DNA of 57,730 bases, the filler included, from Sphacelaria rigidula (lineage: Eukaryota): assembly GCA_964200075.2 (NCBI GenBank). It is 5 parts of 5 records of this genome, joined end to end, with 100 filler letters (N's around TTAATTAATTAA, not from the genome) between each part and the next. Parts side by side here need not be neighbours in the genome. Positions count along the whole stretch, not along the records: positions 11,569 to 23,035 come from CAXNAA020004891.1; 4 more parts are not named here. One strand, given 5' to 3'. Shown here in pieces: positions 1,402-46,166 of this stretch (the first letter of the stretch is position 1; the number at the start of each line of letters is the position of its first letter). The translations under genes were made by a program, and so were the position numbers. The notes under the pieces were generated by a model. It saw nothing but the letters and a program-made list of their open reading frames with translations, was not told the DNA's origin and made no database searches.

Positions 1402-2338
1402 ATATGAACACAATTGAACAAACTTTATCTGATATACATATATGACAACTCGATCGCGGATGGTTTTGAACGATGAGTACTTCATAACGGGTCCTTCGGT
1501 TTTTTTGGAGATGGACTCAGGTGAGAAACTGCGGGCACCGTACATTCCATCAGTCAGGTGAAAAAGCAAAAAACACGCAAACGGCACACGCTTTCATGCG
1601 TAGTTTACTTTCATCGTGTTTAGAAATATCGACGCCACCTCAAACTTCCTTACACACCTTCTCGTAATTCCTGCTCGTTAGGTTTACATTCCAATAATAT
1701 ATATACCACAATCCATGATACCAAACTGTACCCACACCAACACCTGCGTGCTCCATGACAGTAACATGCCCAGTAACGCAAATAGCCTGATCATATGTAC
1801 GTCAGTCATAGCTGAGAAATCGCCTTCGAAAAACGGACAAGACGAGTTCGGCTTGGTCCCCAAAATACACACCACGTCGGTTCAACTCAGATGAAACCGG
1901 TAGAAATGAAAAGCTGGATGTCCTACCCTTGGCTGGGATTTCATTGCGGGTATAGGCAAAACCGAGATCGAGTCATCACGGGAGCACCATGTCCGCGGAC
2001 TGCTTCGGACAAGAGCGTCTTCGAATCGTCATGGAATCACTACTGAACAGCCGCTGCTGATCTTTTCACATTGCACAAGTCAGAACAGCCAGTGACGATC
2101 AACCCGGCGAGACGAACCGAAACGCTATTTCCTAATCTCGACAAACGTCAGGATAGTAAAAGAAAAGAGAACACAAAAAATGAACCATACGCTCCACACA
2201 CACGAAGATACAAAACGACTCACAACACCAGAAACACAACAGATACGTTGACGAACGTGCCACCGCCATCATCAGCGCACGGCCCATGTATGTGTCGACC
2301 CTGTCCCGGAAACGGGCATGGATTGATCAGAAGCTCCT

Positions 2339-5300: not shown

Positions 5301-8300
5301 AATGGTGACCTTGACCAGTTGACACGACGCATCGCCTGATACAACCTCCAAATGAGATGGTTGTTCAAGACAATCACACCATTACAAGCCACTTCGGCTT
5401 GTTCCCCTCAAGGTTCAGTGCCCAGAAAGGGTTCAAGAGTTTCAACGGTCCAACATGTAAGTCTCAGAAATTGTGACCCATGCATGCCGTTCCAACCAAC
5501 ACTCTTTGATACAGCTCTTCGTGGCGGCTCACACGAGCAAGTCAAGTCAGACCAAGTCAAGTGTAGGGAAAATCACAACGAGACCCGCCACATCAGTCTG
5601 GTGTTTCGCGCAAAGAACCCACTCGGCGTCCAAGCATCACAACTATCGCCAACACGATAGAAACAACGCTGTTCCCGCGTGGCAAGCGCGTGGATTTAGA
5701 CAGACTTGTCGACATTCTGTTACTTCTTGGTTCACCTCTGGCGGCGGCGCCATGCTATGTTTGCGTCTGGCGATGTAACAGCCCGTGCTAGTATGAAAAA
5801 CAAGTGCCGTCAGGCAGTCTGTCGAGTAGACGTCATTGGGTGTGAAGGGTTGTGCTTCAGATCATCAAGTATGGACATTTCGAGCGTTGAGGGGGGGAGG
5901 GCACGCTTCGGAACAAAAAAGGCAACGCGAGGGTACGTGAGTTTACGAGCTGAAGGTCTTCAAAGTCAATGCTGTTGACTTGCGCGTTCAAGTCAACATA
6001 AAAATTACTCTATTATTTATAGACGAACACCGAAAAAAATGTGCAAAAGTAACGATCATCACAGAACGTCATGATATAGGGCTAGGATTAACTTGCAAAG
6101 ACTGTTCCCTACGTGAGAGTAGCCTCTTTCTACTACCTTTCGGAAATTGTAAATTACGAAAAAATCGCAAGAAATAGCCTGGCCGCCGTCTGTCTTGTGT
6201 CAACGGGGGGCTTTTCTTTCAAATTTTTTTGTAACGTTAATGACGGTAAAGAGGCTACTCTCACCTTGTTGTTGAGGGGTGCGTCATTCATGCCACCGTG
6301 GCGGCCGCCCACCTGAGCGCGAGCGCCATCAGAGTGGCCCTGGCGGTCGGACGCGGCCCTGTAGAAGTTCACCCGGAAAGCCGGTCCAAATCGCCCAGTA
6401 AAGGATCGCAAGAGATGAAACCCATCCGGTCAGGTTGCATCAGCCAGCACCGATGTTGTGAAAATCCACCCGCAAAGTCGATGTTGGGCGCCACCATCGA
6501 ACGATACATGCAGTTCATCAACAAAACAATATACAGCAGCAGGCAAGAGGTAGAAAACATTTCAGGCTAAGATAGCCGTAACGTGAGGAGCATGATCCGA
6601 GTGCGGGGAAGAAGAGGGGATGCACCCGTGTCACCTCACGGACGCGCCAAGGGTGATATTCAGCTCAAATGTGTTTCATGCCCGATTTGCTACAACCCCC
6701 GAACCACTGTGACGACGACTCGTAACGCTACTGATATTCCAAAAACTCAGGCAACGAGACGACGCGGTGACCCTAACCAACCTAGGCTGTGGGGCCCTGT
6801 CCCTAGGGACAGCCCTTTTGACGTCTATGGTCCTGCCATCTATCACGTGTTCTTCCTTCAGGGCGGCATCCGCGGCTAAAAAGTAAAAAAGAACACAAAA
6901 CAAGAGGCAACGGCAACAACGGGAAGAGAAGAAAAAAAGCAACATATTATGTATTCAACTGTTACGGTCAACGCTCTTCTTGCGTATCGACGGGTATCGA
7001 CGGCGTACATACATAGATACATAGATACATAAATACATGGTACATATATGGATACATACATACCTGTAGTTACCGAACGTGACGTTTTTCAGTAACATAC
7101 AGTGTACGAGTAGACAGTACATACATACGACGCGCAACGAGGGAACGAGACAAGATCGAAAGGACAGCGAGTGACCGCGGCAAAAACGGTTCGAATTATG
7201 CTCGGCCTGCCTCCCTGCTCCGAAACCCGCTCTGCAGTCCAACGCTCATCTCGATACCGCGACTCTGACTGAATGTCAATATCCACTGTATGACCGCCCC
7301 GCGTATCTGTGCTGCCGCTGCTCCCAATCGACCCTGCCCGAATCTGTCAATATCCCCCGTTTGACTGCCCTGGCGTATGTGTGCTGCCGCTGCTGTCAAT
7401 TTTGGCTCTCCCTGTCCTTATCGCGTTCGAGACCGACAGTACGATACCGGATACTGTTGTGTAGCGTAGTACACAGTACGAGTACGTCTGTTTCCTCTGT
7501 ATCGTAGGTGGTTCTTCTCTCTGCTCTGCCCGTCTCCCTCGTCTGCTCTGCTTGTATACTGCCTGCACCTGAAATAACAAAGTTGATACTGTATTTTGCG
7601 CACATCCCGCGCTACCCTTGCCTTCCTGGCCATTGGCCACGGTATTAGGTGCTTCATTGACAACAAATTCTCGGACAAGGCACGATCATCAAGACATGAG
7701 TTGTATCGGATTCATATAAAAAGAAGCAACACTCTGCACCGTGCTGCTGTTCGGTTTGTACAAACCCGACATGACTCCGACATGCCTCCGACATGAATTT
7801 CACAGGCTTTTGCTACAGCTTACTGAACGCACTTGTCTGTACCGGTTGTAGGGATGACAACAGACTACATCGACCAAACAATCCTGTTTTTAAACAAGTA
7901 AGGGCGCGAACGAAGCAATGTTTTCTCATCATGACGTGATCGCTGGGAGATGCATCACGATCAAGGGGCGACGCGCTGAAGACGATGATGGAGTGGACTG
8001 GGGCAATACAGACAGGATCGACACACCAAGAGCAACAGGAGGAATAACTTGCAACATCGACCCGTAAACGCCGCATATGAACAGAAGCAATGATCAGCAC
8101 CGTGCTGCTGTTCGGTTTGTACAGACCCGACATGCCTCCGACATGAGTTTCACAGACTTCTTGCCACAGCCTGATGAGCACACCGTCTGTACCCGGTTGT
8201 AGGGATGACAACCGGGTACATCCAACAAACATGCCCTTTTTGAAACAAGTCGAAAACGAAGCAATATTTTCCTATCATGACATGATCGCTGGGAGATGCA

Positions 8301-9892
8301 TCACGGTCAAGAAGGGGAGACGCGCTGAAGACGATGATCGAGTGAACTTTGAAGTGATATAGACGGGATCGACACACCAATAAAACAGAAGGGATAGCTC
8401 AACATCGACCCTTAGACGCCGTGCGAAGTTGATGGATACGTTGGCAAACCGTCACGGTAGCCAGGCGGCAGCGAGCCAGGCACCTCACCTGCGCTGTCGG
8501 TGAATTGGACGAATCCGAAGCCACGCGGTTCGCCCGTCATCTTATTACGCATGAGGATCACATCGTTCAGAGTACCCCACTTTCCGAAGTGCGATTTGAG
8601 CATGTCATCCGTAGTCTGCCACGTCAAGCCGCCCAGGAAGATTTTGCCCTCCACGTCCACCTCTGCCGATCCAAGTAATCGTTTACATACAGTTGCCGCG
8701 GCGAACACGGGAAAATAGGTGCGCTTAGAAAACGCCTTGTATCATGTGGCGTACAGGACAGTACAGTACAGGATCAAGTCCGAAGTACCGGTGCGGGTTC
8801 AGCAACCTCTCTGGTATTGGGATTGCCGGTGGATCAGACATGCGCAACGCATTCGGCGCGGTCACCAACGTCCGGTTTGGCCAAGGAGCAGTAGGCAACA
8901 TCAACTTTTAGCGCAGCGATTTTGTGAATCGGGTTTACACGCTATGACGTCACCACGTGGCGCAATGTTGCGAAATATTCAAATTTAACTGGCTCTTTCC
9001 TTCACTTGTTCGAGAATTTTTTTGTAGAGACCAGTACAGTACAGTCTACAGTCAGTTCTTACAATTGATGCGCAGTAACCCCAGGTCCTCGACCAAGACA
9101 CAAGAAATAGTATCGATGCACACCCTTACTTTGCTGTTCTTCGTTGGACATCTCCTTCTTGTCGCCGTCTGGGCCGGCGTCGGTTCCGTTGGTTCCGTTA
9201 GTCTCAGCCACGTGATCCGTCTGATGGGCAGGGAAATAAGACGATGGGACAAAAACAGAGAGGGCAGCACAGGTGTTGAATAATGTGCATACGCGAATTC
9301 CTCGTGGCAAGTCTCATTCGTAGAGCAGAGTACCGAAAAGGCGCACAATGCCTCCAGTCTCTGGTGGGCACCGATTATGGGGGTACAGCCAAGTGAACAA
9401 AAAGATCGGTGGACGCAAGAACTTACGAGTGCCAACAGACAGTGCGAGGTTCGGCAAGGCAGTCCACCCTGGTTTGCAGAGCACCGTGTATCACGATCCA
9501 CCAAAGTTCTCGTCAGGTGACACTTTCCGCGAGCAGGTATCACGTTGCGTGGTGGTTTTGATGACAGTCGGAACCCAAGATTTCCCTAAACTTCTTGTTG
9601 CAAAGCCGCTATATTCGGGGGCACCGACAAACCGTACTCGGGCAGTCCAAAGGGATGAGGTGCAACAATCAGTCGTCCGTCATCTATCTGAGGGGGCCGT
9701 TAGACGAGGAACACAACCGGCACGGCACCACTTGACCATTTTTCATAATTTCTACATGATCATAAAACGCACAGTGGCGCCGTTGGCCGCGACCTCCTCG
9801 TCCGTGACCATGCTGGTTGGCTGTTCCGCCTGCACCTGCTCGTTTTCTGCAACCGTCGGCACGTCGTGTTGTTCGTCCAGTCCGTTAGACAT
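2339..9892 (-). CDS. hnRNP A/D- or Musashi/Hrp1-like RNA-binding protein (2 RRMs + Gly/Tyr/Gln low-complexity domain + C-terminal PY motif), ~528 aa
   Basis: Hand-spliced exons, all GT-AG and phase-consistent: 9892-9773, 9220-9130, 8662-8489, 6875-6782, 6358-6265, 5104-5043, 4849-4747, 4442-4221, 3972-3913, 3583-3500, 3193-2921, 2548-2339 (1587 nt). RRM1: KIFLGGL...RGFGFVQF...[14 protein letters not shown]2: KIFVGGL...[10 protein letters not shown]...LKGKSVEVK. Ends ...[10 protein letters not shown]-stop. Confidence 0.93.
7738..8420. repeat. Diverged ~360-bp tandem duplication in intron 3 of the RRM gene
   Basis: CACCGTGCTGCTGTTCGGTTTGTACA.ACCCGACATG starts at 7738 and again at 8098. The copies stay colinear through TGATCGCTGGGAGATGCATCACG and CAACATCGACCC. 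Confidence 0.85.
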
Positions 9893-11568: not shown

Positions 11569-11826
11569 CACGCCACGGTGTTTTTTTCTTATGGGTTGGC
11601 GTGCACGCATAGTCAGGCGAATACCCGACATGCCCCGCCCCCGCTCTGTAGGGATGCGAGGTCAATGGTCCGACGACTATGGCATGCATGATCATGGGTA
11701 CACCCCCTGTACGAGCCAAATAAAACACAACAAAACAAGTTTGCCCCATTCTTCGGGGAACAAGTCCCATTCACCTCCTACCCGCAAAAGATCATACACT
11801 ATTGTTTGTCTGCTATTATAACGCAC

Positions 11827-11977: not shown

Positions 11978-13145
11978 CTTCAAGGAACAGCGCGAGGGGC
12001 GGGGGAGCGCACGTGAGAGGGAGGCTGGGGGAGCATTCTTGTATTTCGATGCAATAGTTCACACGTACGCATGTTAGCTTGCACAATTATTTTCCCACGA
12101 GTTTTCATCAACCCCCTTCCCCACGAGACGGTGATGTGGATCCTGGCTCATGCCACTGCCCTACGCTTCCCATCCCCTATGCGGTTGTAAGGAGGCGTTC
12201 TCGTGTGTTTATGCTAATAGATAATGATGTGGGGCCGTCGTGAGTAGGACGCCGTAATATTTTTCACTTGTTGCTCACGTCAATCTAGACCGATAGAAAG
12301 CAACACTCGCCCTGCCTTCTTGGACTGACCACGTACACCTCGCGCCAAATATCATTTTTTTCGACACAGGGAGTAGGTACCCTTTCGGTTTGCGCAATTG
12401 ATGTGACACAGTTTAACATGGTACTGATTTATGCAAGGGAAAAAAGCAAGTATTGTAACCTGAACATGCAATTTCGAAAGACAACGGCCTAATCTAAAAA
12501 ACTACTACGAAGTGCGACTGATTTCTGGATAATGACCGGCGAACAATGACATCTGGATAATGACCGATAATGAAGACAAGCTTCTTGAAGCGGAGCATAC
12601 TCATGTCTTGCGTCCATGCTGTGACCATGGCTGAATCCCTCTGGGATTCGTTAATGTGCGACAATCAATAAATCAATTCAAATCAGATCAATCCTTCCTC
12701 CGATTTCCCTCCCAATCTAGAAGGACACCGTGATGCTGTTATCACGTCGCACGTACGCAAAACGGGTGGAAGGTTGGTAGGAGATACACAACACGGGACG
12801 AGCTGATTTTTTCCATCATGTTTTTGTCTTTTGGGGCATTAGACAAAAATGTAGAGTTGTGAACTGGCTGCCAGTTTAACTGAGCAGTTAAAGTTAACTT
12901 GTACAACTGGTTAGGTGATCGGTTTCGTAACCAGTTGAACCAGTTACCCGACAAATGTGTGGAACTCCAAATTGTTCTTTGTACGTGTGTGTAATACTCA
13001 AGTCAATATTTCTGAAGTATTGTCGTGCTACAAAGACCGTGGGGACGCTGATACAGAGGCGAGTACATGACCGCACAGCGCACACACCTAGACGTAGACA
13101 CGAAATATCGCAGACAATATATTCGAATATAAGGAAAGAGAGACT

Positions 13146-13218
13146 TATTATTATTATTATTATTATTATTATTTTATTATTTCCGCACATTAGTCCGATC
13201 TCGCGAACCCGTGGTCTG
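13146..13218 (-). repeat. RTE-type 3' tail fragment with (TAA)n
   Basis: Reverse complement reads GACCACGGGTTCGCGAGATCGGACTAATGTGCGG-AAATAA(TAA)n, homologous to 17110-17151. Related fragments at 11401-11468 (-) and ~44500-44560 (-). Confidence 0.7.
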
Positions 13219-13711
13219 GGCGCGGACAATTATTGATTGAGCGGATCCAAAATGTGAAGGAAAACTGCGTTCGGTAGCGTTTGGTAGTGTTGTTGTGTGT
13301 GCTGTGCTTGTTTCTGTCGGCATCAAGCATTTAAGCGTTCGGTGGTGGCTAGTCAACGTGATACCGAAGCATGAGGAAGTGTCGAGATTTCTGTTGAATT
13401 TTCCTGGTTTATGAAGTCACACTCAATAACGTTACCAAGTTCTTGTGCTGCTAGTAGTTCCTGGCGCTTGGGTGGTACATGCGGAACGCTACGTACGCTG
13501 TACTACCGTCTCACCGCTTCGTTTTTTGGATTCACGTCGCAAAGTTCAGTGATATTTATTTTTCCCCCATGCATATATATGTTTGTGTACCGACTACGTT
13601 CTCGAATTGCTGGCGCTAGGCGGCTGGAATTCACCGCGATTTTGAAGAGATGTGAAGCCAAATGGCGTAGTTTTCTTGCCTCCGGCGGGGCCCCCTCACC
13701 AGCCGGGGGGG

Positions 13712-13774
13712 GGCGTACTCATTTGTTGCTTGCCTTAGTCATTTGACCATTGACCACGCATCCCTTTCGAGACG
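13712..13774 (-). mobile_element. Short poly(C)-associated repeat (module B) with ~20-bp target duplication
   Basis: Reverse complement of CGTCTCGAAAGGGATGCGTGGTCAATGGTCAAATGACTAAGGCAAGCAACAAATGAGTACG, flanked by CCTCACCAGCCGGGGGGGGG at 13694 and 13779. Confidence 0.85.
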
Positions 13775-16399
13775 ACCACCTCACCAGCCGGGGGGGGGGG
13801 GGGGGGGAGGGAGTTTCCTAATTATAACCCAATTTTTTTTTTTTTTGTTTTTTCTTTTTTTTTTATTTTTTTTCTTTTTTTTTTCGTTGTTTCCTTTTTT
13901 TTGGGTGTGTTGGTTGCATTTACCTGATAATCATAACCGATTGTACTTTTTGAAACCAGTTAACTGATTAGTCAAACCAGTTCACACTTCTACAAAAATG
14001 GGTACATCGCCCCACATTTCGCCAAAAGTGGGTACAGGTACACGCGATTGTTGGAGCTGTCCGTGCCATGCCCAAGCCACTTAAAAATCAATCCCGACGC
14101 GAAGACAAAGTCAACCAATGCCCATGCAGAGCATGCACACCAACTTTCGCGAAAAAATAGCGCGATTTGGGGCCAAACAGCACAGCAGGGGACGAGGGCC
14201 TCGCGGCACACCCTCTGTTGTCCGACAATCAGATATGCCCATCCATCACGAGTAACTATGGATCATCTCGAACACGCTTTCGTTCGCTTTTGGACTAACG
14301 GGTGTCCCAAATGTACCCACGTTTGATCACTATCGGCCCTCCACAGCCGCCGTCCAACCCACCGCACGGCACAAAACCGAAGGGCCAACGAGCGTCTCCA
14401 ACGCTTCTTTTTCATCTCTTTCTACGGCCCTGAGACTCGGGACCCCGCCGTCGGTGATTTCTACCCAGGGCGCTTGCGATACACAAAACAATTTTAGGGG
14501 TAGTGAAGGAACACATAGTAATCGTGGGGTATACTGCATGGACGTGATTGTGGACCATGGGGCGACGAGAAGACGAGCGGACAAGGCGAGATACTCTGCG
14601 GGGTAAATATTTTGGAACTTTTTTGGCTTTTCGCCGAAACGTTTTTCGGCCGTGTGCCATCGAGGGGAATATAAACCAGCGACACAGTGACCGTTGCTGT
14701 GGAAGACTGCTGTCACACAGCCCACACATGAGACATAAACACACATCATCTTATGATCCCATTATCGTAGGATAGACAATCAATAGCTGGGGCCGTATTT
14801 GTTGATCGACTGAGTACTACGTTTCTGCCTCCGGGCCAGTTCGAAATATGTTGAGACACGATGGTTTCCGTCAGACGCGCGCCGTAAAACACACCCATGA
14901 ACGACCAAGGACTCCATCGCCAGCAACTTTTCTGGCACACTCACGGCCGATCCTTTTCAAAAACCGACCGGGTCGCCGTGAAACGAACGACACTGTGTGT
15001 AGATGAGCAAGAGCTAGCGCTAGACGTGGATGCGCCTCTGCTGTGGTGTCTACGCATGCTTGTTCCGGCTGAGTGTTTCGGTCACGCCCGTTGAGATTTC
15101 CAGACCTGTTTCCGACCGTGTCGAGGGCGGAAATAAACACCGTCGTTCCGAGAAAGTCCGTTTTGTGTTTCGTCCTCAAGATCCGAGGTGGTTGTTGGGG
15201 GCAGGCAACCTCCCTTGCTCGCTCTTCTTTCGGTTTCTTTTATAATCCTCTCGGCAAGACGCGGCATAATGATTGTCACGGACACTTCAAACGGTACTTT
15301 ACATGTTGGAAAAAACAGGAATCTTCGTACGAATAAAAGTAAATATTATTGCGCTTCACAATTGGGTATCTCCCAAATCCCCCAATAGTTGCTTTGCGGA
15401 GTACCTCGTCTTGTTCGGTTATCTTCTCGTCGCTCCATGGTCCATAACCACTTCATGCATTATATCCCACGACCACTCTGTGTGCCTTTACAATTCCTCC
15501 GATTGTTTCGTATATCGCGAGCGCCCTGTAGCGCATGTTACCTTGACATGCTTACGCGGTGCGCCTGAGCGATGACTGATGGACGAAGGAGCTCAGGAGT
15601 TGTATTCCGTACTTCTGCAACTTGTTATGTCGTTCCCGCGCGCACACACAACGGTCGTGCGGTGTTTCAATCACTCCGCAGCGGTCTCGTCTCTTTCGGG
15701 TGCAAACCAACGACGGCGGGTCTCGAGTCGCCAGGCCATACAAAAAAAAAAAAAAGCGCTGCAGACGTCCGTCGGTCCTTCTATTTTGTGCCGTGCCGTG
15801 GGTTGGACGGCGAAGGTGGAAGGCCGATAGTGATCGTACACTTTGGATACAAGTGAGTCCAGAAAAGGGTAAAAGGGTGTATAAGAGAGCCATCGTTGTT
15901 GGTAATGGATGCACCCACCTCATTGTCGCACAAAAGAGTGCATGCTGCGAGGCCCTCGTGCCCCACCGTGCTGTTTGGCCCTAAATCGCGCCTTTTTTTC
16001 GCGCCAAAGTTGGAGCACATCCTCTGTATGTGCTGTGGAAACCTTCTCTTTGCGCCGGGATTGAGTTTTAGTGGTTTGGGCGTAGCACGGACAGCTCCAA
16101 CTTCCGCATTTATCCGTACCTACTTTCGGGCTGAAATAGCGGGGTGTCGTACACATTTTTGTCTACCGCTCTTGTTCCCTTGTAACGGTACCCACCTTGT
16201 CTCACCAGTTCATACCTATTCAGCCTCCTTCTGACATTGCGCTTGAACCAGCAAGAGCTTGATGAGCGCAAGGCTGGACCCGGCAAACACATTTACACTC
16301 ATAATCCATACAACAATATAGTACACCCGTGGGTGATGACTGTTCAGAGTCCGAAAATTCATCAGCGGGGGGCGTGGTTTATAGGGGTGATGGAACACT

Positions 16400-17151: not shown

Positions 17152-19355
17152 AGAATGCAACGTACCCGGATAAGGTACTCTAGCTACAGTTGGGGTCCAA
17201 CCACAGTGCGGCCGTCCAGAGTTCGGGGTCTCTCTGCAGTACAGTACGATCAAAACTGTATGTCACAAGTCCGATTCGCAATCAGGAAATTGCACGATAC
17301 CAGTAAAGTACTGTCATAACGGGCTGGCGACCCACCGCGCAATACTGGGACCCTCACTGCACAGACATGGTGTCGAAAAAATCCCTGAAAACCCATCACC
17401 ACGGGGTGTTGTTCACGCCGGGTGCAGGGTGGTATCTAGGCTATCGACGTTATGCGGTGCCATGTGACACTCACTGTCAAGCTTTGCCGCCCCAGCCACC
17501 AACCCGCTGTAGACCCCCTGCAGTGTGTCAGCATTGTACGCATCCTTCCGGCTCGAACCCAACGAGTTGTGAACACCAGAAGAGAAGAAAGAGAGAGAAA
17601 GAGAGAGAACATCACCATCATCATCACCATCACCAACAGCAGAAGCAACAACAAAAGGGATAGAGCAGAAAAAAAAAATCAGGGAGATAGGTACAACGAG
17701 GGTGAGGAGCACATCGGTGATCGTCAAGGCCACGTTTTTTTTCAATATTTTCGAGTTCAACATATTAACAAAAATCCATGAAGAGCCCACAAATTGAAAG
17801 ATAACGCATATACAATCTTTGAGCAGCAATGATCAAGTTGGATTTGGGCAAGGGGTGAACGGTGGCGCAGGGAACCAGGAAACAGCCGTCCCCGGGGAAT
17901 CGGTTTCTACCGTGAGTGATGGGGTGATATCCACCGTGGTGGCCTATAGCGTGCGAATGACAGCGCTTTTCCATTTTGTTCAAGTTTTTTGTCGAATTTT
18001 TCAATCCGGAGAAGACGCAAGAATTAAAAAGTACATGTTAGCCGGGGATTGAATAAAAACACCCTCCCCGAGAACACAGGTGTTTTGTACCGTTTTGGCC
18101 TGTCAGACACGAATGGCTATGCACCTAAATAGACGAGCGCATCGACAAAATGCGGAAACAATGATTACGAGCTGGGCCAGCTCAAAAGCGGCTTAAAGTT
18201 GCTCATGCCACAGCTTTCCTAGTTTCCCGAATGAACCCGATGTAGGCATATCACTGTGAAGTGTAGACCAACCTGGTAACACACGGCACCGCCGCTGAAT
18301 GAAAAAAAAAAAGTAAAAAAAAATGTACTGCATAATGTATGACCTTAACGACGGACGCAAAAAAAAAAGAGAACCTGTCGGGATTCGAACTTATGACCTC
18401 CATAATTGGAGTCTCCCATCACTAGATTCATAGGGGTGCAGTAGCGTCACGGAAAATGTTGAACGCACGGCCCAATTCGACGACTCTCGAGCTGAAATTT
18501 CAAGTAGACTTTCTGCACCCGATGAACTGATACTTCACGTGAGCAGCTGCAGATTTCCCTTTTTTTTCCCTGGACTCATGATATTATCTTGTTTTTGCTG
18601 ACATTTCAAATGCCCATGACTTTTTTTTTCTTTGCTGCTGACGTGATCTTCTGAATTTTGATCATAAAAAGCTGCCGTCAAATTTTCAGCGTCCAACTCC
18701 TAATATCGCGTCATGCGTCGCCTGAGCGAGATTCACACCCACTCTTGGCTGGCCCAGCTCGCATTTCTTCTCGGAACCTCCATTTGTCCCCAATTGGCGA
18801 TGAAACCGATGCATCCCCTTCCGAACCACGATGGGGTAGGGGGTGTTATATACTGTTTTGGTCAGCTATAAAGCATTTACGAACGAATCGCCATGCCCCT
18901 GAACACACTATAAGCATCGTTCGAATGCATTCACCCGATCCTACAGCTTGAAACAAAATGGACTGGACACCCACAAACATGCGGTTTGCACGCAGGGTCC
19001 TATTTGTAAATCGGTATCATTTTTACTTGAGAAGGACTGAAAATAATGCACGTATTCACATGAAGGCGCCTGCGTGCAAACCATGCGTTTGTGGGAGTCC
19101 GGTCCCAAAAGGGTTGATGACCCCTTCCTTGCCCTATTCCATTTCCCGGGGATGATATCAACGCGTCCCCTCCCCGAACAATCTCAGCGGGAAGGGGGTG
19201 TCATTCGACGTTGTTGCTATTTGCGGCGGGGCAACAATGTATATGAGCACGTGATCGGTCACAATAAAAATCCTAAACCTACCCCGAGTACTGACACCGT
19301 TCGTTACCGATAACGGGACTACGAACACCCTGGGAAAGAAAATGGTGCACCCTTC

Positions 19356-19416
19356 CGTGTCGAAAGGGATGCGTGGTCAATGATCAAACGGCTAATGCAA
19401 GCAACAAATGAGTACG
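19356..19416 (+). repeat. Poly(C)-associated repeat, module B copy
   Basis: CGTGTCGAAAGGGATGCGTGGTCAATGATCAAACGGCTAATGCAAGCAACAAATGAGTACG, flanked by CCCTTCC / CCCCCTTTCCCC. Confidence 0.85.
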
Positions 19417-20471: not shown

Positions 20472-20703
20472 CGGCGCTCCGTCTCGAAAGGGAAGCGTGG
20501 TCAATGGTCAAACGACTAAGGCAAGCAACAAATGAGTACGCCCCCCCCCCCCCCCCCTGGTCCGGCGAGAACCCGGCGTGCTCCGTCCCGGCTTTGTAGG
20601 GGCGGACCCCCGATGGGGTTGGCGTCGCTTGGCGATGACGCTGTAAAACACNNNNNNNNNNGGTCAATGGTCAAACGACTAAGGCAAGCAACAAATGAGT
20701 ACG
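20472..20703 (+). repeat. Poly(C)-associated repeat, modules B-(C)n-A-C, then 10-N gap, then B 3' part
   Basis: B at 20472-20540, a C-run, A (GGTCCGGCGAGAACCCGGCGTGCTCCGTCCCGGCTTTGTAGGG), C (GGGGTTGGCGTCGCTTGGCGATGACGCTGTAAAACAC), N10 at 20652-20661, then the B 3' half again. Confidence 0.85.
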
Positions 20704-21621
20704 CCCCCCCCCCTCCCCTTTCCTTCTTTTGGCTTTTTATAGATAGTTTACACACTGGCTTACAACCACAATGAAAGCAGCATGACAGCCTGTGCAAGCA
20801 GCTGCATCATTGACAGGAGCAACCCAACGAATCTAGCTTCTGTAGATGTGGAATATGCACGAATGACCCTGACGCGCGGTATGTACGGGGCAACGTTTCT
20901 TTCTACCCAGGTACAGTGGGAGAATCTCAGATCATTTTGAAGCCAGGTAAGGTTTACATATTCGTTGTCTTTTTCCAGTCAATCAGCATGTACAGAGTAC
21001 GTTCGCTGTACTTAACCGCTGCTACTGCGATATACGCAGACATTGTGAGATTTTTTTCCATGTTTCGGCAGTCCTGACACTTTCGGGGCACTTCTCTCCC
21101 TCATTTCTAGCATATTCCAATGATGGGCTGTGCGTCATATCGTTTCAGCTGTTCTAGACCTCTACTGACGGTCCGGCGCTTCACTGCACTGCATGCTGTA
21201 TGTACTGAAAACAAGTTTAAACAGAGCTCATTTTATTAGCTCCACGGCCATAAATTAAAGTAGGGCCAGTGAGAGTGTAATCTCTCTCAAATGCTGTACA
21301 CGGTTTCTCGACTTCAACGTCAACAATAGTTAGTCGGTGCGCAAACCTCGTGTGCGATTTCAAAACCAACCGTACGTGCAGGTGAGCTGCACAGAAGCAG
21401 CCCCCCCCTTCGCGTGTTCGAACAGCTAGGAGGTCGTTGGGAAGTGATGAAATCATACCCTCGCTGCAAGATAATCCATATCAGTCAACCTGTGCAGGGA
21501 CATAATTTTATTTTTTATCTAGCATCTGGTTCCTCCGCCTGTTCTCCGGGTCATTCCGCGGTCTGTAGATCCTCAAAATACCTCGCCGCTTTGTAAAAAG
21601 GAAAAAAAAACCACCACCCAA

Positions 21622-21666
<45 letters not shown>

Positions 21667-30100: not shown

Positions 30101-32636
30101 TGGGGACAAGGTGATTTAGGCCATTCCTTTCACGAGAATGTCACTTCAAATCGTCGTTGAAAGCAGCAACTTTTTTTCGGACGCGCTTGGCACCAGTAAA
30201 GCACACTCGTTCATACTGCTTGACACCGTTTTCACCTATTACAAGCGCACCGAGAGTGTCTCAGGTCGTCTGACACAACCATGATAAGCCCCTGATTCTT
30301 GTGGAATCAAGGCACCCTCCCCTTCCCCCCTCGGCTGGCGAAAACCCGACGTAGTCCATCCCGGCTTTGTAGGGACGGACCCCCGATGGGGTTGGCGTCG
30401 GTTGGTAACGACGCTGTAAAACACACCACTCGCTGGGTAAGCTAGGCAACCAGGTTACCGTGTTTCTTGCGCGCTTGCGTTTTTTTTTCGATAAGCATTA
30501 TGGTGGTCGAGCTAGATCATTTTGTGCGGGTTGGGAGAACCTCACCTCCGCGCAAACGGGGATGATCATGCTACGTGGGTTTAAATGGTGAGACATCAAT
30601 GAGGCAGTGTGATACCCGTAGCAATCTGTGGAAGTGGCGATACCAGAAAATGAAGCAACTCATCGAAGGTTGACATCCATATGCAAGATTACCAGTACGC
30701 TTCGGGCTGAACAATCTTAGCAGGCTGCAGCCACCCCTTCATGCGACTTGCCGAATACATCACGGCGCTTCGCGCTCGGTGATTGATGCGAGCCTGGTCC
30801 GGCGAAAACACGGCGTCCTCCGTCCCGGCGTTGTAGGGATACGAATTCAATAGTCATATGATCACGGCATGCAAGATCACTAGTACGCCCCCCCCCTCTT
30901 CCCCCCCCCCGTCAAAGGTTGGCGTCGGTTGGCAACGACGCTGTAAAACACATCACACAGTGCGTAAGCAGGCAATCAGGTCACCGTTCTTTTCTCGCTT
31001 GCGCTTTGTTGCGGTGACCACGATGGTGATCGCCTGAAAATATATCGTATGGGGTAGAGAACCTCAACTCCGCCAAGAGGGGATAAGAATACTATTTATA
31101 GGCGGTGTTGAAATGGTGAGACAATCACGAGGCAGTGTAACCCGTGGCTGCCTCTGGGGGTGGCGATACCAGAAAATGAAGCAACTCAATGGAGGCTGCC
31201 ATCCATACGCAAGATGATTAGTACGTTTCGAGCCGAGTAATCTTAGCGGGGTGCAGGTCACCCCTCATGCGACTCGCCGAACACACCACGTTGCTCCGCG
31301 CTTGGTGATTGCGAGCCTGATGCGGCGAAAACCCGGCGCGCTCCATCCCAACTTTACTGGGGTGCGGGGGCAATGGTGGTATGATTCCGGCATGCAAGAT
31401 CATGAGCACACACACATACCCCTCCCCTGTCCTCGAATCACTCCAACCACAAAAGATTGTTACGCATGCGACCAAGCAGCAGGATCGTTTCCTTGAGAGT
31501 AGCGGCACCCGGCCGATAAACTCATGGAGACCCGTGCTCGGGCGCTACCATGATTGTGCCGAAGAAAACAACGATATCGGTGATCGCTGGAACAAACAAA
31601 AGACGCCAGCATGATCCGACCGCGCGCAAATATTGATAGTTGAACGCACGACATTAACCTTCAGGTATGCAGAATTGACGGGCGATGATATTGTTTCTGT
31701 GATTCCACTACTTCGAAACATTGCCGTCGCGGAAAATGCAAGGAAACAACAATGAAGCTATCCAACGAATATCGATTAGCTGTGGGAGTGCTGGGCTACA
31801 TGCCTCAAAAACCTATCCCGGGCTGGTAACGGGGGAGGGAAAGTGGGGGGAGGGGGGAGCGAACGTTGGTAAACACGAGCTGTTGTCCGAAGTGTACGAC
31901 CGACACTAGAAATATGACGGGCTGCTTTACAAGCAACGTTATCTAAACGTGGGCAATAAAACAAGGCGACGGCGCATGCACGCCGTACGTCTTTTACCAG
32001 CGGCAGGCTAACCGTCACGAGAGACGTACTGTCGATACTTTTTGCGCACTCCTGTAGAGGCACCTGTTCGTAGTGGATGGTGCGATGAAACGTTGAAAAA
32101 AATGGTTTCCTTCTCGACCCGCGGTTGAGTATGAAGCCGTAGATCACAGGCCACAGTCTGTCCCAGAGCTTCTGCAGGCTCTTCAGCACAAGTGGGATGC
32201 ACATAGCGATCATCATGTCCAGAACCACGTTGCCAGTCCTCATGGCGTTAATCATCCCCACCTGCGGTTTAATGGACGGAGTGAGATTCGGGACTTTTTG
32301 GTGGCACAAAAAGCGAAACAAAAAATAACCTGAGTATTTCAGGTTGTCCTTAACCGTTACTACAGACCCCAAAGCATTCATTCTCCGTTTCAGCTCATTG
32401 TCGCCAATGCATCACTTTGTTGGTTGCGTCTCGTGTGCGGTTGATCCTGCAGGCAAGATCCCGATCTCGGTCGAGTTGAAACATCTAGCTGCCCGTCGGC
32501 AAAAATTCAGTGCTTGTGCGTACGTACATGTAAAATGAGTAGAGCCCAAGGACAAAGTTCTGTGTCGACAACAACATCGAGTCCCTGAGAGACTCACGAC
32601 TGTAGATATTTCGTGCCATCCCATTGGCACCAACAT
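24107..32636 (-). CDS. BCS1-like AAA+ ATPase with N-terminal hydrophobic segment, ~759 aa
   Basis: Hand-spliced exons, GT-AG and phase-consistent: 32636-32598 (first exon, least certain), 32261-32064, 30076-29978, 29486-29403, 29113-28934, 28769-28570, 28194-28091, 27695-27544, 27371-27195, 26909-26259, 25928-25789, 24362-24107 (2280 nt). Walker [15 protein letters not shown], Walker [46 protein letters not shown]-terminal FTPAVVEQ. Confidence 0.9.
30332..31409 (+). mobile_element. Two tandem ~500-560-bp long copies of the poly(C)-associated repeat (A-C-body-A-B') in an intron of the AAA gene
   Basis: GGTTGGCGTCGGTTGG.AACGACGCTGTAAAACACA at ~30390 and ~30918. Colinear bodies (e.g. GTGGCGATACCAGAAAATGAAGCAACTCA). 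Both end GGCATGCAAGATCA..AG.AC and are separated by a C-rich tract at 30888-30910. Confidence 0.85.
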
Positions 32637-34701: not shown

Positions 34702-34761
34702 GTACTCATTTGTTGCTTGCCTTAGTCATTTGACCATTGACCACGCATCCCTTTCGAGACG
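34702..34761 (-). repeat. Poly(C)-associated repeat, module B copy at a contig edge
   Basis: GTACTCATTTGTTGCTTGCCTTAGTCATTTGACCATTGACCACGCATCCCTTTCGAGACG followed by a G-run; identical to the 13715-13774 copy. Confidence 0.9.
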
Positions 34762-34874
34762 GGGGGCGGGGGGGGGGGGGGGCTTTTGACAGGGAGATGG
34801 GGGCCTGTTTGCAGGACAGTCGAAAAAGCATACCAAGTCAATATGTGTGTTTGAAACTTTCCCAAGGAAAATTA

Positions 34875-37607: not shown

Positions 37608-38656
37608 TAGAGTTGTAAACTGGTTTGGCTCATCAGTTAACTGGTTGCAGGAAAATACAACCAATTACAGTTACCAGTCAAAACTGGAAAACTGGCGGCG
37701 AAGCCGCCTCGCGACTCCGCCAGCGTTGCTTGGTAAGGCAACGCGGCGGAGTCTCCAAAATGCCCCCCTCCCCCGGCTGGTAAGGAGGCGCCGCCGGAGG
37801 CAAGAAAATTACGTAATTTGGCTTCACATCTGTTTTCGAAATCGCGGTAAAATCTAGCTGCCTAGCGCCAGTAATTCGAGCACGTAGTCAGAGCACAAAA
37901 GTACATATGCATAGGGAAAAAAAAAGAAGTGTCACTGAACTTTGCGACGTGAACTAAAAAAACGAAGCGGTGAGACAGTAGTGCACCATACATAGCGTCT
38001 AGGTATATGCGGTGTGCGGTCATATCGTCGCCTTTGTAGCAGCATCCCCACGGTCATTGTAGTACGACAATACTTGGGGAATATTGATATAGGTATGACA
38101 CATACTTCCTCTGTCCCATGAGTAAAGGTACCTAAATTTGTACGGGCCCTTAACGATTCCCGATCTTTATGTTATTTTATGAACTCTACGGTATTTTTTT
38201 GGTCAAGAAAATGTGTTCAAAATTTGAAGCTTGTGCTTGAACCATGCCGCCGAACGGCTACAAAAAAAGTAGTTGGCCCAAAAAGTAGTCGGCCCAAAAA
38301 TGGCCGTATTTTGCCCCTTTCCAAGGGGAAAAAAAGTGTCGAAAGAGTACTTTTTTTGCAGCCGTTCGGGGGCATGGTTCGAGCATGAGCTGCAAATTTG
38401 AAACACATTTTCTTGACCCAAAAAACACCATAGAGTTTATAAAATAAAATAAACGATCGGACATCGTTAAGGGCCCGTACAAATTTAGGTACCTTTACTT
38501 ACGGGACAGAGGAAGTATTTACACAAAACGCTTTGGAGTATGACCCATATATTGGGTGAAATAACTGGTTCAACTGGTTACGAAACCGGTCAGTTAACCA
38601 GTTATACCAGTTAACTGCAACTGACCAGTTAAACTGGCAGTCACTTTACATCTCTA
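37608..38656. mobile_element. Non-autonomous hAT element, family 2, copy 2 (inverted relative to 12852-13992)
   Basis: Termini TAGAGTTGTAAA / TTTACATCTCTA. Flanks GCAATAAC / GTGATAAC (6/8, decayed TSD). Internal sequence is the diverged reverse complement of 12852-13100 and 13490-13992. Confidence 0.85.
38105..38515. mobile_element. Stowaway-like (Tc1/mariner) MITE nested in hAT copy 2
   Basis: TA-CTTCCTCTGTCCC...GGGACAGAGGAAG-TA, with TA duplicated at 38103-38104 and 38516-38517. Inverted arms of ~165 bp. Absent from the homologous position (~12985) of hAT copy 1. Confidence 0.9.
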
Positions 38657-41522: not shown

Positions 41523-44240
41523 ATGGCAAAAGGAACAGGAAAGGGCAAAAAAGACGGTAAGCCGTCGCCGAAAAGCGGGGCGCGTAAGCTAGCCACTGTC
41601 GCGTCGTCCAAGCCCAGCAAACATCGAGCAAGCAACAGCGGCAGAAGCAGTACTCCCAAAAGCGGGAGCAAGCTATCCTACAGAAAGGCGTCAAACACGG
41701 GCGCCGCTGCGGCTGGAGGAGGCCGGGAAGCTACGACAACGTTTCCTATAAAGGAAATTGGCAGTCACAGTGGCAGCAGTAGCAAGAACAAGGCGCTTGA
41801 CTCTTCGACAAAGGATGGTACTAACAAGAAGAGGAAAGATACTGGCAGCGGTAGCGGCGGCGGCGGTGGTACCAAGAAAAAAAAAACAAAGCTAGAGAAG
41901 CAGGCGGAAGCGGAGGAGGAGGAGGAGGAGGCTGAATTTGACGCCGAAGTGACCACCTCGACCAAGCCAGTCGCCACTAGCGCACCGTTAGTATCGGGTG
42001 TTGTCGATGGAAAGAAGAACGGGAAGAACGGTGGCGGTGCTGCTGCCAGTGGAACTAGCGGCAAGGATGGTGGTGGCAAGAAGGGTGCGGAGGTCGTGGA
42101 GGCCGCGGCCGCTGCAGGAACCGGGGCAGGAGGAGCTGCTGCGCCGCAGCAGCCCCCCGAACTGTTTAAGATGACCTGCACGTGTCCGCACCTATCGAGC
42201 CACCCCTTTAGGGCCGAGTTACTGAGGAAGCTCGTGGACGTTCGTTTCGAGGTGAAATAAAACAGCGATGAACCTTTTTGCCGTCGGACCCCGCAGGTGG
42301 ACCATAGAGGTACACCCGAAAAAGTACGAACAAACGTGGCTTTGCCCACACTTAAAAATGCTATATTACTTTAGTCAACGGGTTATTATTGGGAGTAAGT
42401 GGGTGATGCCGAAGTACCCTAAAACCAATTATCACAGATGGACACTCACTTGCTACTGGAATGGGCCAGATGAACACCCCGGCGGCACAGGTCGAATCCA
42501 GCTAAAGGTTCATAACGTACTTCCAAGATCACATTTGCCCAGCTTTCCCTACCCAGTGCTCGTGCAGCCCTGGGCTCGCGTGTGAGTGCTTGATGGCAGT
42601 GCTGTACAACGTAGACACGAGAAGATCAATGGCGGACCCCGCAGGTGAACATTCACATTATGTCGAGACAGTAAAGCACTCTGCAATGTACGGTGTTCCG
42701 AGTGGTAGATAACGGCTACATGGTGTGAGCTTCTTCCGCTGGACTGTGAGCCGAACATACTGTACCTAAACGAGGTCCGGGAGTCAACGTGTTGAGACGA
42801 CTTTTATTTCATTATGGGGGAGATGATGAACGAGGAGTTTACCTTGAGTTCACTTGACACCTTGGCCGAGACGAGCTGACCATTGCATCCATATGCTACT
42901 TAGCCGCCTCACTCCTCATCCAATTAAGGGGAGTTAGTCACCGGCTCTTGGACTGCTACTATGTGCTTCACTAGTCCACATACATTACAGCTGTTGTACA
43001 GTTGCAGTAGCATGTTGTTCCATCGTGCTCTCCATGACGGAATGTGTCGGTTGGCTGGTTTCGGGTACCTTGGGTGCAGAGTACTGTATATATCACAAGC
43101 ATTCAGTCATGGCATGTCACGCGCTGTCCTTCGTTGTATGCGTGCTTGGTGTAGCTCAGCCACCTTTTCGATATAACTCGCAAAACCCCCAGGTTCTGTG
43201 CGAAATTGTTTCGTTGCGTTGTACACAACGCCCGCATTTGTTTTTCTGCGGAGTGCTGTCTACCTTGCGTTGGTTTCAGGGTCGCTCAAAGGTAATGGAG
43301 GCGTAGATCTGTACCATGTCCTCTTTCTTCTGCTACGCGGTACGCGTCTCCCGCGGGAGTCTCCGGTGGGAACTTTGTTTTATACATTCGCTATATGTGT
43401 ACATTTTGTCACGAAATTTATGGATATGGATATGGATACATATATGAACACATTCCATCGTACGTTTAACTCCCCCCCCCCCTCCTCGGGATTAGTACGT
43501 AGTCTCGAGGAATCAACGACCAACGGATCTTTCTCTCCCCCCCCGGTGCTCCGTCTCGAAAGGGATGCGTGGTCAATGGTCAAACAACTAAGGCAAGCAA
43601 CAAATAAGTACGCCCCCGGTGCCAGCCTGGTCCTGCGAGAACCAGGCGTGCCCCGTCCGGGCTTTGTAGGGATGCGAGGTCAATGGTCTTACGACTACGG
43701 CATGCAAGATCATGAGTACCCCCCTCCCCCCCTGGTACTTGCCTGATATTTTGGTATATCAGGTTGGATCAGCACTCATCGATCCCCGCCGAATTTCCTT
43801 TGCCTCACGCTTCCAACCCCGTACACCAGATTTTGGTTATTTGAAAGAAAAACGTATCTATCGGATTTCGACCCCGTAAACCAGATTTTGATGGTGTGAA
43901 AAAAAAAATGTATTTGCCGGATTTCGAACCCTCAACCACTCGCGCCAAATGACCGTTAGTGTACAACTTGGACTACCGGGGCGAGGTGGCATGTAAGAGT
44001 TGAAACAACGACGCACGGAAGTAAATGTGCAGCAATGGGTTCCGAGCTGCACTCCCCTACCGACCCTGTAGTGCTACTCCTTGTGTTTGTGCCTCTTGGT
44101 GGCTCGCGACTCATTTTTGCTGCTCTGGTCGCTGTGAAATGTGTTGAAAGGTGAACACTGCGCTGATGGTGAAGCAACGAGACACGATCGGTGTTTTCGG
44201 CGCCATGGAAGGACAGGGAATGGGCTACGCTGGATCACAG
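41523..44240 (+). CDS. Unknown protein with long Lys/Gly/Ala/Glu-rich disordered N-terminus (partial)
   Basis: Exon 41523-42251 (243 codons, MAKGTGKGKK...TKKKKTK...EEEEEE...CTCPHLSSHPFRAELLRKLVDVRFE, donor GAG|GTGAAA). Probable phase-0 second exon 44151-44240 (VNTALMVKQRDTIGVFGAMEGQGMGYAGSQ, CAG|GTTAGC). Divergent from ALG1. No family recognised. Confidence 0.65.
43544..43720 (+). repeat. Poly(C)-associated repeat, body-less B-A-B' form
   Basis: GGTGCTCCGTCTCGAAAGGGATGCGTGGTC...AAGTACGCCCCCGGTGCCAGCCTGGTCCTGCGAGAACCAGGCGTG...GTAGGGATGCGAGGTCAATGGTCTTACGACTACGGCATGCAAGATCATGAGTAC, flanked by CTCCCCCCC on both sides. Confidence 0.85.
43900..43982 (-). repeat. tRNA-derived SINE-like remnant
   Basis: Reverse complement has an A-box-like TAGTCCAAGTTG and a B-box-like GGTTCGAAATCC followed by a T-run. 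No complete cloverleaf. A similar B-box remnant (GTTCGAATCCC + T-run) lies at 18360-18420 (-). Confidence 0.4.
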
Positions 44241-46166
44241 GTTAGCGCGCGTGTGTGTGTGTGTGTGTTGTGTTGTCATCCCATCTGTTCTGGACGCCGG
44301 TCTACACCTTTCGGTATATATATGTGGACACAACAGCCGGGGTCACACGGGAGGAAGGCCAACACAGAAGCTTTTTCTCTTTCTTTTGTTTCAGTAATCC
44401 ACCTTCTGCGGTGCTTGACTTTCATTTTTCATCGCGAGAGGGGTTCATCGGTCCCTTCCCCTCGTCGACCGCGAAGTCGAAATTTTACCGTGGTAACTAT
44501 TTTATTGTTACTACTACTGATACGCCAGCCTGGTTCTCGGACCCGTGGTTGCAGAGTAAATTGGAGACGCGGACACTGCAGCAGTAGCACATCGTGAAGA
44601 AACACGCACAAAGGAGGGGGGGGGGGGGGGGGGCCGGATTAAGAAGGAACGAAGTAAGAGGGAGGAGGACACAAAAAAAAAGGTCCNNNNNNNNNNCAGT
44701 GCACGGCCCATACTCAGGATGACCGGCCATACCCGGCTCAGCACAGCGTCGTGAACGCTCAGCAAAGGAGGGGGGGGGGGGGAGCCTGATTCATGATGAA
44801 CGAAATCAGAAGGAGCACGACACAAAAATAGATGTCCAGTTGAGGCATGGAAAACAAGAAACAGTCTACGATCACGTTTTAATCTCAAGCCCAAACTGCC
44901 AGCCTGAAAATTCCGAGAGCGGAGGGAAGAGAGGTTAGTCGGAAGGGTTTCAGTAGAGCAGGATTACACCGAAAGAGCACGGGCCGATTGCAAACGAGTG
45001 AGTCCTTCGCCACATGTTGGGGCTGGACCCAGCACATGTTTTCAATGGAACGCTGTGTATAGTATCACGATTTGCGTAAGGAGCTGAGGGGCTCATCCGG
45101 GTGTGGGTAAGGATAACATGCCACTACTTCGAGGTTGAGAAAAAGAGAAAGAAGAACGGGCTGGGGACTGTAGATAATTTCAACCAACACCACCCTTCTC
45201 CGCCGGAAGAGTTCGGGGTTGTGATCTATCCCTCTAGGGTTTTGCTTTTTATGCGCATTTTTTTTTCTTCTTGTGTTTCACAAGTGAATATTATGCGCCG
45301 ATCTATGCAAATTCTGGTGAAGTATGCGCGACTTGTGCGCCTTTTTTGCGTCGTTCTTGAGGTGGTTCCTGGCGGGTTCCTGGCGGCACCGCCCATGGAA
45401 TTTTGCAGCAAAAAAACAAGACGGCATGTTGAACTTTTCGAGATTTCACGACTGCTTGGAAAAAAGGCTCGCTCGTTTTGTCTCCGTTCATTGGTTTTGA
45501 AGGCCATAATAAAATAATAAAAAAACAAAATATGTATATAATGAAAATAAAGTCATGCGCGTTTCTCACGCCCTCTGCTCCTCAGCGGTCTCGTTCGCGT
45601 CGCGCTGTTGGGGCGCGGAAGTCCGCACCTCGGTCACCTCGACCCCTTTCTGCTCTGCCATAATAGTGTAGTGCTCACTGCTGTACTGCCAGTGCACTGT
45701 GCGCTGTACACTGTACAGTTGTGGATTGGACTGGTGTGTGACGTTGTGGCGGGAGCCGCTGTTTGATGTGAAAAATGACACACTTGATTTTCTATCAGTT
45801 TCACATGAACATAGAGTAGCTCACATACAGCACCGTAACCGATATCAGACCCGCAACAAAATTCAAAAAAAAAATTACGAACACAAACGCCACGACTCCA
45901 CGAACCACGCCACATGTAGCACCCGTGGGCATTCACTAGCTGCTGAACATGAGGTGCATAACCCCGTTGGAGTACTATATGCGCCAAGTTATGCGTATAA
46001 CTCAGCTCTCATGCCGTTGTTATTGTTATGCTGAAATCTCCAAAAACAGATGTTATATATTTGCATGAAGAGCAAAAGCCTATATCCCCCCCCCCGCCCC
46101 CACCCCCATCACCTCTAGACTCTTGGGTTGGCGTCGAGTGGCAACGGCGCTGTAAAACAAGCCACC

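What the first reader, a model, noticed from the sequence alone, without database searches (positions are those of the whole stretch)
13694..13798. A retroposon-like element that appears to insert into poly(C)/poly(G) tracts, with filled and empty sites both in this window
Seen: a ~63-nt repeat (module B) sits between two copies of CCTCACCAGCCGGGGGGGGG inside hAT copy 1. The homologous position of hAT copy 2 (~37763-37785, reverse complement CCTTACCAGCCGGGGGAGGGGG) has that sequence once and no insert. In element orientation the 3' end ...GAGTACG runs straight into the C-run of the duplicated target. The other copies (19356, 20472, 30332, 30917, 34702, 43544, 46126) also abut C-rich tracts, and their 5' ends vary while the 3' ends are fixed. 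Established: long TSDs with variable 5' truncation are the signature of target-primed reverse transcription, normally with A-rich or microsatellite tails. Inference: this is a non-autonomous retroposon whose 3' GCCCCC end primes on G-homopolymer DNA, implying an unidentified partner RT/endonuclease with (C)n/(G)n preference. I do not know of a described family like this, but cannot search.
Basis: partly seen in the sequence, partly recalled or inferred. Interest (0 to 1): 0.75.

Follow-up and report, generated by a model that had tools for sequence, protein, structure and literature searches.

The report
Truncated ends of a poly(C)-tailed LINE
The small repeat is the cut-off tail of an ordinary copy-and-paste jumping gene of a kind already catalogued in brown algae, which inserts at runs of C and G; the one oddity is that most copies stop at almost the same very short length.

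Summary
The 62-nt insert at 13714-13775 sits between 20-nt duplications that begin, in element sense, with a C-run. Of 25 copies of the host hAT-like element, 19 are empty at this G-run and 6 carry such inserts. 'Non-autonomous, partner unknown, undescribed' is not. Module B is the last 62 nt of a ~5.8-kb endonuclease-reverse transcriptase LINE in this genome: 18 codons, the stop and a 5-nt UTR. The same kind is curated in Ectocarpus as RTE-X families RTEX-1/2_Ec32, '(C)n 3'', 'C-rich' TSD, with a ~600-bp non-autonomous partner sharing the 3' 60 bp (Dinatale 2025 supplement). The sites at 30332 and 30917 are that partner; 46126 is the LINE's 5' end. Left over: 51 of 79 sampled copies end 57-72 nt from the 3' end, and genome-wide exact matches fall from 2007 to 456 across 9 nt there. 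A recurrent stop of reverse transcription is likeliest; a self-amplifying ~66-nt mini-element is not excluded.

The parts
13694..13713 (+). Target-site duplication, copy at the element's 3' side (element sense: C9 then 11 nt)
13714..13718 (-). 5-nt 3' UTR of the LINE, running into the C-run
13719..13775 (-). Last 18 codons and stop of the LINE endonuclease-RT ORF (SSRKGCVVNGQMTKASNK*)
   Evidence: 17/17 to P0002 C-terminus; 14/17 to Ectocarpus protein P0015
13776..13778 (-). 3 extra nt at the 5' junction (untemplated, or part of a 23-nt duplication with one mismatch)
13779..13798 (+). Target-site duplication, copy at the 5' junction; G-run continues to 13807
12852..13992 (+). Host non-autonomous hAT-like DNA element, copy 1 (16-bp TIRs; 8-bp duplication at 12844-12851 and 13993-14000)
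37608..38656 (-). Host element copy 2, empty site at 37766-37785
19355..19416 (+). LINE 3' fragment, 62 nt, followed by C5
20472..20540 (+). LINE 3' fragment, 69 nt, followed by C17 and the head of the non-autonomous partner
20558..20651 (+). 5' head of a non-autonomous partner copy, cut by an N gap
20662..20703 (+). LINE 3' fragment whose 5' part is lost in an N gap
34702..34762 (-). LINE 3' fragment, ~62 nt, C-run at the 5' junction, 3' flank lost in an N gap
43545..43612 (+). LINE 3' fragment, 68 nt, short duplication overlapping the 5' junction by microhomology
43624..43718 (+). ~95-nt 3' fragment of the non-autonomous partner, followed by a C-run
11601..11706 (+). Diverged 3' fragment of the non-autonomous partner
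30332..30887 (+). Non-autonomous partner (RTEX-N1-like), 556 nt, between C-runs; first of a tandem pair
30917..31409 (+). Second, 5'-shortened tandem copy of the partner (75% to the first)
46093..46166 (+). 5' end of the autonomous LINE after a C-rich tract, cut by an N gap
   Evidence: 82-89% to the first 73 nt of full-length copies L033, L044, L037

Best explanation
Module B copies are 5'-truncated insertions of an autonomous RTE-X-type LINE (~5.8 kb; one ORF with an APE-type endonuclease and an RT, ending 5 nt before a (C)n tail). SHOWN: module B is that ORF's end; the duplications start in a C-run; the site is empty in most host copies. INFERRED, by analogy with L1 poly(A)/T-run priming: the endonuclease nicks the G-rich strand in or just 3' of a G-run; the freed G-ended primer pairs with the C-tail of the RNA; RT copies the RNA; a second nick roughly 10-20 nt away gives the duplication. 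INFERRED, weaker: RT on the long LINE RNA often stops 57-72 nt in, where folding puts the 3' arm of a stem, so most products are ~66-nt stubs. The same enzyme mobilises the ~560-nt partner through its related tail.
For: Long copies carry the RT motif region ~1.35 kb upstream of module B and hit Pfam RVT_1 at E 7.9e-27 and 1.1e-13 (2 of 5 pieces). P0002 (RVT_1 plus endonuclease families) aligns in pieces over residues 1-1360 to full-length copy L044. The RT groups with Ectocarpus proteins at SH-aLRT 99 in a quick tree. Target statistics. Six filled sites among 25 host copies at one G-run, with five distinct insert lengths (~8, ~36, ~45, 62, ~70 nt). The 3' C-run is longer than the 5' one in 10 of 18 scorable sites (e.g. 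14 vs 3 at L088), equal in 3, shorter in 5. For a recurrent stop: both sequence variants at -28 exist as short and long copies; short copies share no non-LINE leader; L114 restarts after reaching -65 and continues upstream; folds of 130 and 200 nt both place a stem arm at -61 to -69; partner-type tails, which lack that upstream sequence, show no end at the equivalent position in the 30 loci read. Ectocarpus RTEX-1/2 match in size, tail, TSD and partner.
Against: No intact ORF was found in this genome: the longest stop-free LINE stretch among 22 long loci is 326 aa, and those copies are about 80-85% identical to the query copy, while short copies differ from the majority sequence by only 1.5 of 37 nt. 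The T variant extends past -73 in 38 of 606 copies, the C variant in 118 of 749 (p 3e-8), which hints at separate amplification of short copies. Predicted folds are no more stable than shuffles (z -0.43 to 1.13), and the two folds give different partners for the same arm. 47 of 75 copies fail the strict duplication test. No RNA evidence for a C-tail was obtained.
Confidence: 0.83

Rival explanations
1. The ~66-nt stubs are a self-amplifying mini-retroposon. Any stub inside a host transcript is bound by the LINE protein, primed at its C-run and cut or stopped at its own 5' border, so it multiplies without a promoter and without the long RNA.
For: Sharp mode at 65-67 nt (30 of 79 copies). Short copies are closer to the majority sequence than long ones (1.5 vs 2.2 and 2.7 differences in 37 nt) and richer in the T variant (19 of 50 vs 2 of 16); genome-wide skew p 3e-8. 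Homology with the partner's tail also begins at -67. The first and last 6 nt of the unit can pair.
Against: Both variants also occur in long copies. No shared leader or transduced flank among short copies. Partner-type tails carry the same terminal pairing yet do not end there. The fragmented assembly probably loses young long copies (21 of the first 100 hits lie at contig ends), which could itself cause the age and variant skew.
Confidence: 0.13
2. The stubs come from LINE RNA already trimmed from the 5' side by a nuclease down to a protein-bound or folded 3' core, and then copied completely.
For: Minor end clusters at 84-93 and 112-119 nt lie near the 5' feet of predicted stems; the mode at 66-67 is the 5' foot of the possible terminal stem.
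Against: The same terminal stem is possible in partner-type tails, which show no such end. No Rfam family in the window and nothing at gathering level over the partner pair. Folds are not better than shuffles.
Confidence: 0.15
3. Module B is the terminus of an LTR, TIR or Penelope-like element, or the duplication at 13694/13779 is a one-off.
For: Ectocarpus Chlamys Penelope-like elements and one unclassified C-rich element exist.
Against: Module B is the C-terminal coding sequence of an APE-RT protein. Duplications and C-runs recur genome-wide. No terminal repeats of the long element were seen in self-comparison.
Confidence: 0.02

Closest known systems
RTEX-1_Ec32 and RTEX-2_Ec32 (RTE-X LINEs of Ectocarpus sp. 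7; Dinatale et al. 2025, PMC12477816, supplement MOESM3)
   Same: Single EN-RT ORF, (C)n 3' end, C-rich TSD, 5.5-5.9 kb, against ~5.85 kb for L044. RT 40-67% identical to named Ectocarpus proteins. An Ectocarpus protein ends in nearly the same peptide.
   Different: A different genome and family. The Ectocarpus consensus FASTA files could not be read, so no direct DNA comparison. The text and tables I saw give no TSD geometry, priming model or truncation peak; Fig. 1C, which shows terminal motifs, was not viewable.
RTEX-N1_Ec32 and RTEX-N2_Ec32 (non-autonomous; N1 is probably the 'Sower' repeat: 2.48 Mb vs ~2.5 Mb, my inference)
   Same: ~600 bp, 3' 60 bp 83% like RTEX-1/2, weak homology to the 5' end of RTEX-2, can be tandem. 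Window 30332-31409 shows all four traits.
   Different: These correspond to the window's partner element, not to module B, which has no head of its own.
Saccharina japonica RTEX-1 (Ye et al. 2015, PMC4421812)
   Same: A recently active RTEX family in another brown alga (passages).
   Different: No tail or target information in the passages seen; sequence not compared.
Mammalian L1 target-primed reverse transcription (recalled)
   Same: The duplication begins with the homopolymer that matches the RNA tail; 5' truncation with microhomology or extra bases.
   Different: C/G in place of A/T; the ORF runs to 5 nt from the tail; truncation peaks at ~66 nt.
RTE-clade LINEs and SINEs whose TSD start follows the 3' microsatellite (Nishiyama and Ohshima 2018, PMC6007223, abstract only)
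   Same: The first TSD base is tied to the 3' repeat of the RNA.
   Different: Those have microsatellite tails and an upstream T-stretch; here the tail is a C homopolymer.

Membership tests
Non-LTR retrotransposon (LINE) | RT-coding ORF upstream of the fixed 3' end | tested here: met
   RVT_1 hits on 2 of 5 ORF pieces; module B encodes the C-terminus
Non-LTR retrotransposon (LINE) | APE-type endonuclease N-terminal to RT | tested here: met
   P0002 carries PF03372/PF14529 and its residues 1-547 align at 62% to L044; in this genome the domain is interrupted by stops
Non-LTR retrotransposon (LINE) | Variable-length TSDs, 5' truncation, fixed 3' end with simple tail | tested here: met
   28 of 75 strict TSDs of 8-20 nt vs 1.9 in controls; C-run tail; 5' ends from 28 nt to full length
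Brown-algal (C)n RTE-X families (RTEX-1/2_Ec32 type) | (C)n 3' end and C-rich TSD | tested here: met
Brown-algal (C)n RTE-X families (RTEX-1/2_Ec32 type) | Single EN-RT ORF in a 5.5-5.9-kb element | tested here: met
   L044 ~5.85 kb; one homologous ORF covers positions 1852-5845. A further ORF in the 1.85-kb 5' part was not excluded
Brown-algal (C)n RTE-X families (RTEX-1/2_Ec32 type) | Non-autonomous partner sharing the 3' ~60 bp at ~83% | tested here: met
   window 43668-43736 81% over 69 nt; alignment
RTE-X clade (Repbase) | RT phylogeny with reference RTEX elements | not testable with these tools
   No labelled Repbase proteins held; the quick tree shows only a clade with two Ectocarpus lineages of unnamed proteins
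RTEX-1/2_Ec32 (same family) | DNA similarity to the published consensus | not testable with these tools
   FASTA supplements unreadable
SINE | Small-RNA-derived head with internal Pol III promoter | tested here: not met
   Module B is wholly LINE-derived; no Rfam hit in the window
Independent non-autonomous mini-family | Private diagnostic mutations or leader absent from long copies | tested here: inconclusive
   Variant skew, but both variants occur in long copies and no shared leader was seen
hAT (host element) | Short TIRs with 8-bp TSD | tested here: met
hAT (host element) | Link to a hAT transposase | not tested
   No autonomous partner was sought

The most novel reading that the evidence does not exclude
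The ~66-nt unit is a promoterless minimal retroposon, thousands of copies strong, that propagates on its own because the LINE protein recognises, primes and delimits exactly this unit; it would define the smallest cis-signal for a G-run-primed, poly(C)-templated insertion reaction.
Probability: 0.13. Interest if true: 0.6.

Novelty: new member of a known kind. Interest (0 to 1): 0.3.

Why it matters
The kind is known, but in the text and tables I saw its C preference is only a note in a supplementary table. Here the target geometry is measured and one G-run is caught being hit repeatedly. The element explains the many C/G runs and contig breaks in this genome. Its endonuclease and RT would be a natural system for G-run-directed insertion. 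The 66-nt peak points to the RNA region that the enzyme recognises and makes the cause of LINE 5' truncation testable on a very short template.

Tried and rejected
Ribozyme or known RNA at the truncation point or partner head: no Rfam hit at gathering score in the window; 3 chance-level hits (E 3-5) over 30300-31450; by eye the head does not fit an HDV-like or twister pattern (recalled consensus). Stable fold of the 3' unit: z-scores -0.43 to 1.13 for 6 sequences. Expression: no RNA holder listed; no reads were laid. Earlier scan notes: nothing by sequence or place; one unrelated green-algal poly(A) note by words. The careful tree did not finish; only the quick tree is used, built from 37 of 45 rows whose alignment to the query spanned >190 aa. 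Pfam found no family in 3 of 5 ORF pieces. Literature searches showed no listing whose title or abstract start describes poly(C)-primed insertion or such a truncation peak; only listings were seen for most papers and subscription journals are missing. Rejected: LTR/TIR terminus; SINE; one-off duplication.

Full report
1. The site. Window 13694-13713 and 13779-13798 are the same 20-mer. Between them lie 62 nt of module B on the minus strand and 3 extra nt. In element sense the 3' end runs straight into the C9 that opens the duplication. The host is a ~0.9-1.1-kb non-coding element with 16-bp inverted repeats and an 8-bp duplication (12852-13992), so 'hAT-like' is fair; no transposase link was tested. 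The second window copy (37608-38656) has the motif once. I read the 25 best of 40 listed genome matches to the host's upstream 233 nt. Of these 25, 19 are empty at this G-run. Six are filled: the window copy (62 nt), L145 (~70 nt), L146 (cut by a gap, probably the same event as L145), L150 (~8 nt), L160 (~36 nt) and L166 (~45 nt). That is about five independent insertions at one G-run.

2. Genome-wide pattern. The 3' 24-mer occurs exactly 3148 times, control 0. I took the first 100 listed hits, left out 10 that lie within ~160 nt of a contig start, and scored 90. Eleven of these run off a contig, leaving 79; four more with N at the 5' junction were dropped for the target statistics, leaving 75. 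A C5 run lies within 12 nt downstream in 61 of 75 (background 1.9%) and within 30 nt upstream of the 5' junction in 50 of 75 (background 4.7%). Exact duplications of >=8 nt with >=3 non-C bases were found in 28 of 75 (lengths 8-20), against a mean of 1.9 in shuffled pairings. The test is strict and misses C-only or mutated duplications, but 47 of 75 do fail it. Where the C-run could be compared on both sides, it was longer at the 3' side in 10 of 18, equal in 3, shorter in 5: modest support for C's brought in by the RNA.

3. What module B is. Some copies continue upstream into a long shared sequence with RT motifs. Twenty-two long loci were fetched. Three hold both ends (L033, L037, L044); L044 spans ~5.85 kb between C-rich tracts and has a ~63-bp tandem array in its 5' part. 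Two of five ORF pieces hit Pfam RVT_1. The nearest proteins are intact 1328-1360-aa endonuclease-RT proteins at 72-73% identity and named Ectocarpus proteins at 40-67%. P0002 aligns in pieces over residues 1-1360 to L044, and its last 17 residues are identical to the translation of window 13772-13722. Module B is thus 18 codons, the stop and 5 nt of UTR. A quick tree puts the RT in a clade (SH-aLRT 99) with two Ectocarpus lineages. All long copies examined are decayed; the longest stop-free LINE stretch is 326 aa.

4. 19355, 20472, 34702 and 43545 are further stubs of 61-69 nt. 30332-30887 and 30917-31409 are tandem copies of a non-autonomous element whose tail is ~80% like the LINE's last 67 nt and whose head shares a motif with the LINE's 5' end. 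Its tail motif occurs 2038 times. 46093-46166 is the LINE's first 73 nt, cut by a gap.

5. What is known. Dinatale et al. 2025 (PMC12477816; seen: abstract, first part of section 5, passages, rows of supplements MOESM3, 4 and 8) list RTEX-1a/1b and RTEX-2_Ec32 as single EN-RT ORF, '(C)n 3'', TSD 'C-rich', 5511-5867 bp. They list RTEX-N1 (604-607 bp) with '60 bp 3' end 83%' to these, weak homology to the 5' end of RTEX-2, sometimes tandem. Each trait is matched here. The consensus FASTA files and the copy table MOESM6 could not be read and may bear on family identity and on copy lengths. 'C-rich' has 0 occurrences in the main text. Maumus et al. 2011 (PMC3145265, one passage) give Sower ~2.5 Mb, like RTEX-N1's 2.48 Mb; equating them is my inference. 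Ye et al. 2015 (PMC4421812, passages) report an RTEX-1 in Saccharina. Kojima 2018 (PMC5753468, passages) lists RTEX as a Repbase clade. The RTE-X label rests on this match of traits, not on a tree with reference proteins.

6. The length peak. Of 79 copies, 13 end before 55 nt, 51 at 57-72 nt (30 at 65-67), 11 at 84-126 and 4 beyond 150. Three of the shortest abut N gaps, and two of the 51 (L111, L114) continue upstream after a gap or an internal repeat. Even if all 21 contig-end cases were long, about half of the 100 would still be stubs. Genome-wide, a 24-nt core extended 9 nt downstream matches 2007 times, and extended 9 nt upstream to -74 only 456 times. Both variants at -28 show the drop: 38 of 606 T copies and 118 of 749 C copies reach -73. 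Partner-type tails in 30 of 2038 loci end instead at 27-60, ~93-107 or further out, with none seen at the equivalent of -67. Folding places a stem arm at -61 to -69 in both a 130-nt and a 200-nt context, with different partners, but folds are no better than shuffles. I favour a recurrent stop on long RNA. Self-amplification stays open because short copies look younger, though loss of young long copies from a 27,214-contig assembly could produce the same look.

7. Verdict. A real feature with a correctly guessed mechanism, but a new member of a catalogued kind: a brown-algal (C)n-tailed RTE-X-type LINE. The length peak is the only part I did not find described in the searches named above.

Noticed in passing
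window 13808-13940; also 21602-21664 and 34530-34600: A- or T-rich low-complexity stretches directly beside long C/G runs; in host copy 1 this replaces the ~75-nt hairpin seen in empty copies. Probably read decay after G-runs, possibly a second insertion.
   Followed up: partly
L058 and L060, 5' junctions: TTAGGG-type letters lie between the duplication and the element (about two units in L058), like telomeric repeat added at the junction.
   Followed up: no
L033:385-939, L044:1594-2092: Tandem array of ~63-bp units in the 5' non-coding part of the LINE.
   Followed up: no
window 30332-30400 vs 30787-30840; 43624-43718: The partner element repeats a ~55-nt unit at its head and again just before its tail; a cluster of partner fragments starts at this unit, ~93-107 nt from the 3' end.
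   Followed up: partly
L017, L044, L086, L089; window 20540-20560 and 43612-43624: Stubs often sit directly in front of partner copies, because each insertion leaves C-runs that are targets for the next.
   Followed up: partly
L150: An insertion of only ~8 nt of the LINE 3' end with its own duplication.
   Followed up: no
P0008, P0022, P0025, P0026 C-termini: A 'V-N-G' motif near the ORF end persists in homologues down to 40% RT identity; it coincides with the DNA most conserved between LINE and partner tails and may reflect an RNA signal.
   Followed up: no
L046:2851-3727 (element sense): A second LINE-like stretch 70% identical to the family, followed by a partner-type tail; possibly a second autonomous family.
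   Followed up: no
window 13992-14599 vs 15396-16162; 38103-38517; 7713-8421; 34877-36779; 48204-50549: Other repeats: large inverted pairs and direct or tandem duplications, not examined.
   Followed up: no
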